Source: the human T2T-CHM13v2.0 reference genome, Homo sapiens
NCBI RefSeq assembly: GCF_009914755.1
Contig: NC_060940.1
Direction: 5' to 3' (one strand)
DNA: 64,000 nucleotides
Part shown: piece by piece, positions 13,792 to 16,367 of the stretch
How the letters are laid out: each line of letters starts with the position of its first letter
How positions within the stretch are numbered: the stretch's first letter is position 1
Notes under the pieces: generated by a model
Seen by the model: only the letters and a program-made list of their open reading frames with translations
Database searches by the model: none
What the model was told of the DNA's origin: nothing
Made by a program: the position numbers and the translations under genes

Positions 13792-16367
13792 AGAAAAAGA
13801 GCATCTAGGCCGGCCACGGTGGCTCATGCCTGTAATCCCAGCACTTTGGGAGGCCAAGGTGGGTGGATCATGAGGTCAGGAGTTCGAGACCAGCCTGGCC
13901 AATATGGTGAAACCTCGTCTCTACTAAAAATACAAAAATTAGCAGGGTGTGGTGGCATGCACCTGTAGTCCCAACTGCTTGGGAGGCTGGGGCAGAAGAA
14001 TCACTTGAATCCAGGAGGTGGAGGTTTCAGTGAGCTGAGATTGTGCCACTGTACTCCAGCCTGGGCGACAGAGCAAGACTCTGTCTCAAAAAAAAAAAAA
14101 AAAAAAAAAGGAAAGAAAGAAAAGAAAAGAAAAAGAGCATCTAGAGCGGGCGCAGTGGCTCACGCTGTAATTCCAGCACTTTGGGAGGCTGAGGTGGGCT
14201 GATCACAAGGTCAGGAGTTTGAGACCAGCCTGGCCAATATGGTGAAACCCCATCTCTACTAAAAATACAAAAATTAGCCAGGCATGGTGGTGGGTGCCTG
14301 TAGTCCCAGCTACTTGGGAGGCTGAGGCAGGAGAATCGCTTGAACCCGCCAGGCGGAGGTTGCAGTGAGCTGAGATCACGACTGCACTCCAACCTGGGTG
14401 ACAGAGCGAGACTCCATCTCAAAAAAAAAAAAAAAAAAGAAAAGAAAAGAAAAGAAAAAGAGCATCTAGGTTGGGTGCAATGGCTCATGCCTGTAACCCC
14501 AGCACTTTGGGAGGCTGAGGCGGGCTGATCACAAGGTCAGGAGTTCGAGACCAGCCTGGCCAATATGGCGAAACCCCATCTCTACTAAAAATACAAAAAT
14601 TAGCCAGGCATGGTGGCGGGTGCCTGTAGTCCCAGCTACTTGGGAGGCTGAGGCAGGAGAATCACTTGAACCCGCCAGGCGGAGGCTGCAGTGAGCTGAG
14701 ATCACGACTGCACTCCAACCTGGGTGACAGAGCGAGACTCCATCTCAAAAAAAAAAAAAAGAAAAGAAAAGAAAAGAAAAGAAAAAGAGCATCTAGGTTG
14801 GGTGCAATGGCTCATGCCTGTAACCCCAGCACTTTGGGAGGCTGAGGCGGGCTGATCACAAGGTCAGGAGTTCGAGACCAGCCTGGCCAATATGGTGAAA
14901 CCCCATCTCTACTAAAAATACAAAAATTAGCCAGGCATGGTGGTGGGTGCCTGTAGTCCCAGCTACTTGGGAGGCTGAGGCAGGAGAATCGCTTGAACCC
15001 GCCAGGCGGAGGTTGCAGTGAGCTGAGATCACGACTGCACTCCAACCTGGGTGACAGAGCGAGACTCCATCTCAAAAAAAAAAAAAAAAAAGAAAAGAAA
15101 AGAAAAGAAAAAGAGCATCTAGGTTGGGTGCAATGGCTCATGCCTGTAACCCCAGCACTTTGGGAGGCTGAGGCGGGCTGATCACAAGGTCAGGAGTTCG
15201 AGACCAGCCTGGCCAATATGGCGAAACCCCGTCTCTACTAAAAATACAAAAATTAGCCAGGCATGGTGGTGGGTGCCTGTAGTCCCAGCTACTTGGGAGG
15301 CTGAGGCAGGAGAATCGCTTGAACCCGCCAGGTGGAGGTTGCAGTGAGCTGAGATCGCGACTGCACTCCAACCTGGGCGACAGAGCGAGACTCCACCTCA
15401 AAAAAAAAAAAAAAAAGAAAAGAAAAGAAAAAGAAAAAAGAAAATAAAAAGAGCATCTAGGCTGGGTGCAGTGGCTCATGCCTGTAACCGCAGCACTTTG
15501 GGAGGCCAAGGTGGGCAGATCACTTGAGGTCAGGAGTTCAAGACCAGCCTGGCCAACATGACAAAACCCCGTCTCTACTCAAAATACAAAAAGTAGCCGT
15601 GCATGACGGCAGGTGCCTGTAATCCCAGCTACTTGGGAGGCTGAGGTGGAAGAATTGCTTGAACCTGGAAGGCAGAGGTTGCAGTGAGCTGAGACTGTAC
15701 CATTGCACTCAAGCCTGGGTGACAGAACAAGACTCTGTCTCAAAAAAAAAAAAAAAAAAGAAAGAAAGAAAGAAAAGAAAAGAGCATCTAGGGTTGAAGG
15801 GTTGAGAGTGGTGGCTCATGCCTGTAATCCCAGCACTTTGGGAGGCCAAGGTGGGAGGATCACTTGGGCTCAAGAATTCAAGACCATCCTGGGCAACATA
15901 GTGAGACCCTGTCCCTACCAAAAAAAATATTAGCCGGGTGTGGTGGCACACATCTGTAGTCCTAGTTACTTAAGAGGCTGAGGCAGGAGAATCCCTTGAG
16001 ACCAGGAGTTCAAGGCTGCAGTGAGCCATGATCACACCATTACACAGAATAAGACCCTGTCTCAAAAAGAAAAGACAGCTCACGCCTGTAATCCCAGCAC
16101 TTTGGGAGGCCTAGGCGGGCAGATCACAAGGTCAGGAGATGGAGACCACCCTGGCCAACATGGTGAAACCCCGTCTCTACTAAAAACACAAAAATTAGCT
16201 AAGTGTATTGGCGCGCCCCTGTAATCCCAGCTACTCGGGAGGCTGCGGCAGGAGAATCGCTTGAACCCGGGAGGCAGAGACTGCAGTGAGCCGAGATCAC
16301 ACCGCTGCACGCCAGCCTGGCGACAGAGTGAGACTCTATCTCAAAAAAAAGAAAAAGGAATATCTAG
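13792..16367 (+). repeat. Head-to-tail array of 8 Alu elements separated by a repeated AGAAAAAGAGCATCTAG motif; central 4 units near-identical
   Basis: Motif ends at 13808, 14144, 14469, 14796, 15122, 15460, 15791, degenerate copy ends 16367; period 325-338 bp. Confidence 0.95.

What the first reader, a model, noticed from the sequence alone, without database searches (positions are those of the whole stretch)
14128..15460. Alu-unit VNTR made by unequal crossover: four near-identical units, three chimeric
Units starting at 14144, 14469, 14796 and 15122 share private changes (GGGCTGATCACAAGG, GAACCCGCCAGG, a short deletion in GAGATCACGACTGCAC, CCAACCTGGG). Units 3-5 begin with the 5' end of the downstream Alu at 15460 (TGGGTGCA.TGGCTCATGCCTGTAACC) but continue as the Alu at 14144, whose own 5' end differs (GAGCGGGCGCAGTGGCTCACGCTGTAATT). 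This maps the crossover to the shared CAGCACTTTGGGAGGC stretch, followed by further expansion. A ~326-bp whole-Alu tandem repeat is unusual, likely variable in copy number and poorly visible to short reads. It lies ~550 bp from a critical exon of a meiotic gene in which variants cause infertility.
Basis: partly seen in the sequence, partly recalled or inferred. Interest (0 to 1): 0.8.

Follow-up and report, generated by a model that had tools for sequence, protein, structure and literature searches.

The report
Tandem Alu array in TERB1 intron
Four nearly identical Alu repeats sit head to tail in an intron of the meiotic gene TERB1; they arose by misaligned recombination between neighbouring Alus, a well-known process, and nothing here shows an effect on the gene.

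Summary
Four units of 325-338 bp (14145-15460) are 94-98.6% alike and share changes that 44 other Alus of the window lack or nearly lack. A 57-base stretch carrying three of them occurs nowhere else in the 3.1-Gb genome. Units 3-5 are chimeras. Their first 30 columns differ from unit 2 at 9 positions against 2 of 247 in the rest, and they match the downstream Alu at 15461 best.

The array is wider: eight same-strand Alus (13809-16357) lie between copies of one 10-mer, GAGCATCTAG, a repeatedly copied target-site duplication. The old Alus share no rare changes and are older towards the right, which fits serial insertion at one LINE-1 cleavage site. The young units also need at least two or three exchanges with different switch points. 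Units 2 and 5 look like the old pair and units 3 and 4 like later recombinants.

The mechanism is ordinary Alu/Alu unequal exchange, and Alu-length tandem repeats are already catalogued. Copy-number variation and any effect on TERB1 splicing or fertility could not be tested. Interest is low to moderate.

The parts
13794..13808 (+). Leftmost copy of the target-site duplication AAAAAGAGCATCTAG. It is preceded by unique sequence (GCTTTAG) and is the presumed original LINE-1 endonuclease site.
   Evidence: GAGCATCTAG occurs exactly 7 times in the 64-kb window, only at the unit junctions (13799, 14135, 14460, 14787, 15113, 15451, 15782).
13809..14144 (+). U1: old S-type Alu with A-tail, (AAAG/AAAAG)n and the 10-mer. 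It is not part of the young set.
   Evidence: Body identity of 83.7-84.4% to U2-U5. Non-CpG divergence from the panel majority 5.9%. Two sub-threshold 7SL-like halves.
14145..14469 (+). U2: first young unit, with its own 5' end (AGCGGGCGCAGTGGCTCACG-CTGTAATT). The parental type for the 3' part of the young units.
   Evidence: U2 differs from U3-U5 at 9 of 30 5' columns.
14470..14796 (+). U3: chimeric unit. U5-like up to column 107, U2-like after that, with 3 private substitutions and one tail indel.
   Evidence: switch interval 14570-14577.
14797..15122 (+). U4: chimeric unit. Identical to U3 and U5 in columns 0-98 and identical to U2 from column 77 to the end, tail included (0 of 249 differences).
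   Evidence: switch interval 14874-14895.
15123..15460 (+). U5: chimeric unit and the most diverged young unit. It keeps three CpG sites that U2-U4 have lost and has a longer, altered tail.
14826..14842 (+). Interval of the first exchange (U6-type 5' end joined to a U2-type body), given in U4 coordinates: CCAGCACTTTGGGAGGC. The same interval is present in U3 and U5.
15461..15791 (+). U6: old Alu and donor of the 5' end of U3-U5.
   Evidence: Nearest of the other Alus in the 52-sequence alignment to that 5' end (3 mismatches; next best 4 and 5). The T,T,T,C haplotype is found only in U3-U6. The 34-place 5' pattern has 30 places in the genome, 4 of them here.
15792..16075 (+). U7a: oldest Alu of the run, J-like (subfamily label recalled, not tested), with an 8-bp microduplication at its 5' end and a 15-column internal deletion.
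   Evidence: Non-CpG divergence 13.1%.
16076..16357 (+). U7b: 5'-truncated Alu inserted in the tail of U7a, with no 10-mer at its 5' junction.
16358..16367 (+). Rightmost, diverged copy of the 10-mer (GAATATCTAG), at the right edge of the run.
   Evidence: found with up to 2 substitutions allowed.
13431..13580 (-). Neighbouring TERB1 coding exon (context, not part of the repeat). It encodes most of the TERB1 fragment crystallised with TERB2.
   Evidence: Hub annotation, and (PDB 6J07 chain B residues 6-54, E = 2.2e-29).

Best explanation
The locus was built in two layers.

Layer 1 (old; inferred). Several independent Alus inserted one after another at a single LINE-1 endonuclease site, TTTAG|AAAAAGAGCATCTAG. 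Each new element landed at the head of the previous one and copied the target-site duplication again. The result was a run t-Alu-t-Alu-t with the oldest element (U7a) on the right. One further truncated Alu (U7b) landed in the tail of U7a.

Layer 2 (younger; shown by sequence). Misaligned homologous exchange between two neighbouring same-strand Alus, the U2 type and U6, took place inside the shared 17 bases CCAGCACTTTGGGAGGC. It produced an extra unit with the 5' end of U6 and the body, tail and 10-mer of U2. The resulting near-identical units then recombined again at least twice at other points (14874-14895 and 14570-14577), giving four units.

On a rough clock the first exchange is about 6 million years old, and the exchange that made U4 is younger than about 2 million years.

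The array is most likely a neutral intronic by-product, antisense to TERB1. It remains a substrate for further gain or loss of units.
For: Shown:
- Period and identity of the units.
- Private shared changes that are absent or rare in 44 panel Alus, and unique in the genome as a 57-mer.
- The unit junction is unique in the genome: the 32-mer has 3 exact places plus U6 at 2 mismatches.
- An abrupt change of relationship at the 5' end: U4 against U2 is 9 of 30 versus 2 of 247, p = 2.9e-8.
- U6 is the nearest of the other Alus to that 5' end, and the T,T,T,C haplotype is found only in U3-U6. The 34-place pattern occurs at only 30 places genome-wide, 4 of them here, so an adjacent carrier by chance is very unlikely.
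- Tail and 10-mer are copied with the unit; the U2 and U4 tails are identical.
- The mosaic pattern of U3 and U4.

For layer 1:
- Seven exact 10-mers at the junctions and nowhere else in the window, plus a diverged eighth at the oldest edge.
- The old units share 0 rare states pairwise; the only shared one is a gap between U7a and U7b. Among 1176 pairs the mean is 0.37.
- Non-CpG divergence from the panel majority falls from right to left: U7a 13.1%, U6 8.4%, U1 5.9%, U2 5.1%.
- By my reading of the printed flanks of six same-strand neighbouring pairs, four pairs are closely adjacent. One of them (28189-28772) shows the same reuse of the target-site duplication clearly, and a second (16709-17242) shows it only for two of three copies, with the third ambiguous.

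Literature:
- Passages of Balachandran et al. 2022, PMC9675761, report Alu-mediated duplications, higher-order amplifications and chimeric Alus.
- El-Sawy and Deininger 2005, as paraphrased in PMC3783187, note that the endonuclease site persists at the head of an inserted Alu (the original paper was not seen).
Against: - No outgroup or second haplotype was available, so the ancestral two-unit state is inferred, not seen.
- The resemblance of the 5' segment to U6 is modest on its own. It has 3 of 30 mismatches against 44 of 251 in the rest (p = 0.44), and the runner-up panel Alu has 4 mismatches.
- Several informative sites within the young units are CpG transitions, which recur easily, so the order of the later exchanges is uncertain.
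- One site does not fit a simple tree: T at 14291, 14944 and the matching U5 position, against C in U3.
- The C shared by U3 and U5 at column 99 is also seen in U6, and this is unexplained.
- For layer 1, the tails of U1, U2 and U6 all carry similar (AAAG/AAAAG)n runs. That would fit old duplication of Alu plus tail as well as independent insertions.
- U1 is not measurably younger than U2 (14 against 12 non-CpG differences).
- Whole-unit gene conversion among pre-existing Alus would leave the same sequence.
Confidence: 0.82

Rival explanations
1. Concerted evolution without gain of copies. U3, U4 and U5 were pre-existing independent Alus of the serial-insertion run, and gene conversion from U2 and from each other later overwrote them, tails included.
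For: The older layer shows that many Alus accumulated here between copies of one 10-mer. The mosaic of short segments among U2-U5 is also what conversion tracts produce.
Against: U3, U4 and U5 are identical over the first 77 columns and the 10-mer (0 of 77 differences), and whole units including A-tails and AAAAG runs are alike. Conversion would have had to cover each full unit of about 326 bp with unit-exact ends three times. Unequal exchange gives this in one step per unit.
Confidence: 0.08
2. Assembly artefact. The reference over-expanded a two-unit locus.
For: Nothing positive. 36% of 150-mers in the array are exactly repeated, so a short-read-based assembly could err here.
Against: Every unit is distinguishable from every other: 4 to 20 substitutions plus tail indels. 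That is not what a spurious repeat of the same reads gives. The array spans 1.3 kb, far below the length of the long reads used for a telomere-to-telomere assembly (established knowledge, not tested here).
Confidence: 0.02
3. Local retrotransposition. U2 was an active source Alu whose copies landed next to it.
For: Alus do insert preferentially next to Alus, and the old layer of this locus probably grew that way.
Against: The private 57-mer haplotype exists only in these four units in the genome, so U2 left no offspring elsewhere. The copies carry the U2 tail with its AAAAG interruptions rather than a fresh homopolymer tail. The copies also carry the 5' end of U6, which a transcript of U2 would not contain.
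Confidence: 0.02
4. For the old layer only. One founder Alu with its target-site duplication was tandemly duplicated early, by slippage or unequal exchange, and the copies then diverged. Under this view there were no serial independent insertions.
For: U1, U2-U5 and U6 all have A-run plus (AAAG/AAAAG)n tails. U1 and U2-U5 share T in CCAATATGG, seen in 5 of 44 panel Alus, and both lack the 2 bases that 37 of 44 panel Alus have.
Against: There are 0 shared rare states among U1, U2, U6 and U7a. U6 carries the 2-base insertion form and U1 and U2 do not. U7a has a markedly different, older-type sequence at 13.1% non-CpG divergence. By my reading, U1 and U2 also differ at the GGCGCGCGCC / GGCGGGCGCC position, which I recall as a subfamily marker (not tested). 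Only the rightmost 10-mer has decayed, which fits successive copying of the leftmost one.
Confidence: 0.3

Closest known systems
Alu/Alu-mediated rearrangements (non-allelic homologous recombination between direct Alus; TE-mediated duplications of Balachandran et al. 2022, PMC9675761; AAMR of Song et al. 2018, PMC6071635, seen in the search listing only)
   Same: The substrate Alus are in the same orientation. There is a chimeric Alu at the junction and the switch lies within a short stretch of identity. The duplicated segment equals the start-to-start distance of the two substrates. The two substrates are about 83% alike, near the 82% median reported for homology-driven Alu events (passages).
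   Different: Most reported events are deletions (445 of 493 in that study) or single duplications of about 1 kb. Here the substrates are immediate neighbours, so the duplicated unit is exactly one Alu plus its tail, and the product went through further rounds to four units.
Tandem insertions of Alu elements (El-Sawy and Deininger 2005; original not seen, known through citing passages)
   Same: The Alus lie head to tail in one orientation, and the original endonuclease site persists at the head of the earlier element. The direct repeat is shared. Two other pairs in this window look similar.
   Different: Here the chain is long, with at least four elements sharing one 10-mer plus one in a tail. 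A recombinational expansion is superimposed on it.
Transposon-derived minisatellites and VNTRs, such as Alu-derived minisatellites and the SVA VNTR (review PMC9659126, passages)
   Same: A tandem array whose unit comes from a transposable element.
   Different: Those arrays usually repeat a fragment of tens of bases inside the element. Here the unit is a whole Alu with tail and flanking duplication, and variability has not been shown.
Alu-length motifs in T2T primate tandem-repeat catalogues (bioRxiv 10.64898/2026.01.20.700717, section 5 read)
   Same: The same class of object: a tandem repeat called by a repeat finder whose motif matches Alu.
   Different: The preprint attributes the class to adjacent insertion of young Alus. 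This locus shows that recombinational copying also contributes. Its supplements were not open, so I could not see whether this locus is listed.

Membership tests
Alu SINE | Dimer of two 7SL-derived arms | tested here: met
   Each unit gives two Metazoa_SRP matches on the + strand, one per arm, at 28.6-52.9 bits. All are below the gathering score of 70, as expected for a derived repeat.
Alu SINE | Many dispersed similar copies, an A-rich tail and a flanking target-site duplication | tested here: met
   71 blastn matches to U2 in the window at 69-100%. A-tails and the repeated AAAAAGAGCATCTAG flank are seen.
Alu/Alu-mediated tandem duplication (unequal homologous exchange) | Two substrate Alus in direct orientation | tested here: met
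   U2 and U6 are both on the + strand.
Alu/Alu-mediated tandem duplication (unequal homologous exchange) | Chimeric Alu at the junction, with the switch inside shared identity | tested here: met
   9 of 30 against 2 of 247 differences to U2 (p = 2.9e-8). The 5' end is nearest to U6. The switch is in the 17 bases at 14826-14842.
Alu/Alu-mediated tandem duplication (unequal homologous exchange) | An allele or species with the unduplicated state | not testable with these tools
   No other human or primate assembly is held. Only the window's own genome could be searched.
VNTR in the strict sense | Head-to-tail copies of a motif of 7 bp or more | tested here: met
VNTR in the strict sense | Copy number varies among individuals | not testable with these tools
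   No population data were available. Literature searches on TERB1 with VNTR, tandem repeat or Alu found nothing on this locus (listings only).
Tandem Alu insertions with reuse of one endonuclease site | Adjacent same-strand Alus of different age sharing one direct repeat | tested here: met
   Seven exact 10-mers plus one diverged. Divergences are 13.1, 8.4, 5.9 and 5.1%. No rare states are shared.
Tandem Alu insertions with reuse of one endonuclease site | Stepwise appearance of the elements in the primate tree | not testable with these tools
   No primate genomes are held.

The most novel reading that the evidence does not exclude
The array is a human-lineage, copy-number-variable element that matters for TERB1 in one of two ways.

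(a) Its eight + strand Alus and the + strand Alu at 12754-13030 bracket the two coding exons 13063-13128 and 13431-13580. These total 216 nt, in frame, and include the TERB2-binding segment. The locus would then be unusually prone to Alu/Alu deletions of 1-3.5 kb that remove the TERB2 interface and that exome pipelines could miss, explaining some unsolved meiotic-arrest azoospermia.

(b) Longer alleles, which add antisense Alus with U-tracts upstream of the exon, disturb its splicing in spermatocytes.
Probability: 0.04. Interest if true: 0.6.

Novelty: new member of a known kind. Interest (0 to 1): 0.25.

Why it matters
As a mechanism it adds little. Alu/Alu unequal exchange and tandem Alu insertion are both established.

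As a worked example it is clean. One locus records both ways in which Alu-length tandem repeats arise: serial insertion at one cleavage site, then recombinational copying. The exchange points are mapped to 8-22 bases.

Practically, it flags a stretch of about 2.6 kb of direct Alus, 229 bp from an exon that encodes the TERB2-binding part of TERB1. TERB1 is a recessive meiotic-arrest gene (review PMC8004677, passages). Short reads map ambiguously there. Copy-number changes, or Alu-mediated exon deletions, would therefore be easy to overlook in men with azoospermia. Whether such alleles exist is unknown.

Tried and rejected
- A pattern search longer than 35 places with wildcards was not accepted by the genome search. 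A 34-place version was used instead.
- Literature searches for this locus found nothing relevant by title or listing: TERB1 with VNTR (1 paper, irrelevant), TERB1 with tandem repeat (15 papers, 10 listed, none on this locus), TERB1 with Alu (4 papers, 3 listed). Full texts of these were not read.
- A rare-state-sharing test for old duplication among U1, U2, U6, U7a and U7b gave zeros. This does not exclude a duplication that happened soon after insertion.
- Identity alone as a criterion was rejected, because independent Alus in the window reach 96.4%.
They are recalled labels.
- A genome-wide count of whole-Alu arrays could not be made. The genome is too large to be laid in the script box, and repeat counts from the genome search are lower bounds.
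- No protein, fold or complex tool was relevant beyond identifying the neighbouring exon.
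Full report
**What is there**

Reading 13560-16400 shows a run of same-strand Alu elements. Tandem Repeats Finder calls one array at 13792-15999 with period 326, 6.7 copies and 88% matches. The repeat finder gives spacings of 335, 326, 327, 326 and 340.

The 10-mer GAGCATCTAG occurs exactly seven times in the 64-kb window. All seven lie at the junction just before an Alu 5' end: 13799, 14135, 14460, 14787, 15113, 15451 and 15782. 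A diverged eighth copy, GAATATCTAG, closes the run at 16358.

Cutting at that motif gives these units:
- U1 at 13809, 336 bp.
- U2 at 14145, 325 bp.
- U3 at 14470, 327 bp.
- U4 at 14797, 326 bp.
- U5 at 15123, 338 bp.
- U6 at 15461, 331 bp.
- U7 at 15792, 576 bp. It holds two Alus: U7a, and the 5'-truncated U7b from 16076.

Each unit gives two sub-threshold matches to the metazoan SRP RNA model on the + strand. U2 finds 71 similar stretches in the window. Both results fit dimeric Alu elements.

**Is the similarity more than independent Alus would show?**

The bodies of U2-U5 are 94.2-98.6% identical to each other, and 74-85% identical to U1, U6, U7a and U7b.

The control was a panel of 44 other near-full-length Alus from the window (946 pairs). 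Their identity has median 77.9%, 99th percentile 88.6% and maximum 96.4%. The top pairs are most likely young elements that have changed little. Identity alone is therefore not decisive.

What decides the matter is that U2-U5 are only 87-88% identical to their best panel Alu, yet share states the panel lacks:
- T in GGGCTGATC: 0 of 44.
- CC in GAACCCGCCAGG: 1 of 44 at each position.
- The 2-base deletion before ACTGCAC: 0 of 44.
- A in CCAACCTGGG: 3 of 44.

A 57-base stretch carrying three of these changes has four matches at up to three mismatches in the whole 3.1-Gb assembly, and they are these four units. The unit junction (10-mer plus 5' end) is likewise found only here. The tool warns that repeat counts are lower bounds.

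**The chimeras**

In the first 30 aligned columns U4 differs from U2 at 9 positions. In the remaining 247 it differs at 2 (Fisher p = 2.9e-8). U3 and U5 behave the same way.

That 5' segment is closest to U6, with 3 mismatches. The next best of the other Alus in the 52-sequence alignment have 4 and 5. The four-state haplotype T,T,T,C is found only in U3-U6. On its own this resemblance is modest: 3 of 30 against 44 of 251, p = 0.44.

Rarity strengthens it. The 34-place pattern shared by U3-U6 has only 30 places in the whole genome, four of them here. A neighbour carrying it by chance is very unlikely.

The three CpG positions that are T in U3-U6 are still C in U2. So the U2 5' end cannot derive from the U3 type.

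The switch from U6 type to U2 type lies in CCAGCACTTTGGGAGGC (14826-14842 in U4).

**More than one exchange**

Among the young units:
- U4 is identical to U3 and U5 in columns 0-98.
- U4 is identical to U2 from column 77 to the end, tail included (0 of 249 differences).
- U4 therefore looks like a recombinant with a switch between 14874 and 14895.
- U3 follows U5 to column 107 and U2 afterwards, with a switch at 14570-14577. It has three private substitutions and a tail indel.
- U5 keeps three CpG sites in the panel-majority state that U2, U3 and U4 have lost: G at CCCCGTCTC, G at GATCGCG and C at GGGCGAC.

I read U2 and U5 as the older pair and U3 and U4 as later recombinants between them. 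Because most of these sites are CpG transitions, which recur, the order is an inference. One site (C in U3 against T in U2, U4 and U5) and the C shared by U3, U5 and U6 at column 99 remain unexplained.

**Rough dating (inference)**

I assume an age of about 35 million years for an S-type Alu; this figure is recalled. U2 has 26 differences from the panel majority in 276 sites. On that clock:
- U2 against U5: 8 of 236, about 6 million years.
- U3 against U4: 4 of 326, about 2 million years.
- The identical 249 bases of U2 and U4: younger than about 2.2 million years (95% bound).

The last steps would then fall on the human lineage, which makes copy-number variation plausible but does not show it.

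**The old layer**

The old units share no rare states pairwise: 0 in nine of the ten pairs tested and a single shared gap in the tenth (U7a with U7b), against a mean of 0.37 over 1176 pairs. They differ at positions where the panel itself is split, for example the 2-base insertion present in U6 and U7a and absent in U1, U2 and U7b.

Non-CpG divergence from the panel majority falls from right to left: U7a 13.1%, U6 8.4%, U1 5.9%, U2 5.1%. Only the rightmost copy of the 10-mer has decayed.

This fits serial insertion at the head of the previous element. As paraphrased in PMC3783187 from El-Sawy and Deininger 2005, the original endonuclease site persists there. I did not see the original paper.

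By my reading of the printed flanks of six same-strand neighbouring pairs, four pairs are closely adjacent. One of them (28189-28772) shows a thrice-repeated flank clearly, and a second (16709-17242) shows it for two of three copies, with the third ambiguous.

My own inference on why reuse looks exact is this. If the second nick falls a few bases into the older Alu's 5' end, the duplicated bases pair in register with the new copy's 5' end. The product then looks like an exact reuse of the flank.

An early duplication of one founder is the rival reading. It is favoured by the similar (AAAG/AAAAG)n tails. I give it about 0.3.

**Context and function**

The Alus are on the + strand and TERB1 is on the - strand, so they are antisense in the 8.1-kb intron between exons 13431-13580 and 21706-21801 (hub annotation). 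The young units start 565 bp from the exon and the cluster starts 229 bp from it.

The exon's 49 internal codons match the TERB1 chain of PDB 6J07 at E = 2.2e-29. The depositors name 6J07 as the TERB1-TERB2 complex (PMC6361898, data-availability passage). TERB1 is listed as a recessive cause of meiotic arrest (PMC8004677, passages).

None of the exons the hub table lists for other TERB1 transcripts lies in the array. Nothing here shows an effect on splicing. I take the array to be a neutral by-product.

**Two practical points**

- Short reads are ambiguous here. 416 of 1167 150-mers are exactly repeated, and 90 of 117 sampled ones have another place at 3 or fewer mismatches.
- The + strand Alu at 12754-13030 and the array bracket two coding exons of 216 nt in total. 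That geometry is known to favour Alu-mediated deletions (PMC9675761, passages). This is a prediction, not an observation.

**Comparison with what is known**

The mechanism is that of Alu/Alu-mediated rearrangements. That study reports duplications, higher-order amplifications and chimeric Alus in normal genomes.

The class 'tandem repeat with an Alu-length motif' is mentioned in a 2026 preprint on T2T primate catalogues. It says several common long motifs match known repeats including Alu elements, and its Figure 1a labels such peaks in the motif-length distribution. It ascribes the class to adjacent insertions (section 5 read; supplements closed, so I could not check whether this locus is listed).

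My searches found no paper on this particular locus (listings only). I file it as a new member of a known kind.

**Verdict**

The claims of rarity, variability and clinical relevance are unproven.

Noticed in passing
window 28189-28772 (- strand): A tandem pair of Alus, with the less diverged one at the head. There are three copies of one A-rich flank (AAAA[T/C]GTTTGGG, then AAAAAGTTTGAG at the far end). This is the same reuse of a target-site duplication as in the array.
   Followed up: partly
window 16709-17242 (- strand): Two tandem Alus, both preceded by AGTCC[T/C]G. They are inverted relative to the array and lie about 350 bp beyond its end in the same TERB1 intron, so the pre-mRNA could form Alu-Alu double-stranded RNA.
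   Followed up: no
window 13850-13862, 15502-15514, 15842-15854 (- strand): The degenerate 13-mer CCNCCNTNNCCNC, recalled as the human recombination-hotspot motif, matches in U1, U6 and U7a but not in U2-U5. There are 12 matches in the window against 1.1 expected, most of them in Alus. The U6 copy overlaps the 3' end of the interval of the first exchange.
   Followed up: partly
window 14275-14326, 14601-14652, 14928-14979, 15254-15305 (+): Sub-threshold Rfam matches to the mir-1268 family (63-65 bits against a gathering score of 83) inside the right arm of each young unit. mir-3135 gives weaker matches on the - strand in three other units (U1, U6, U7a). They most likely reflect microRNA families that I recall as Alu-derived, not genes.
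   Followed up: no
window 12754-13030 (+) and exon 12988-13128 of other TERB1 transcripts: According to the hub table, an alternative TERB1 exon extends from the coding exon 13063-13128 into this antisense Alu. Part of an Alu is therefore annotated as exonic in some transcripts.
   Followed up: no
window 15792-15815: The 5' end of U7a begins with an 8-bp local duplication (GGTTGAAG next to GGTTGAGAG) before the usual GTGGTGGCTCA. U7a also lacks 15 columns near its 3' end.
   Followed up: no
window 14569, 15222 and 15562: U3 and U5, but not U4 between them, carry C in ATGGCGAAACC. U6 also has C at the aligned column, with different neighbours. No simple order of exchanges explains this.
   Followed up: partly
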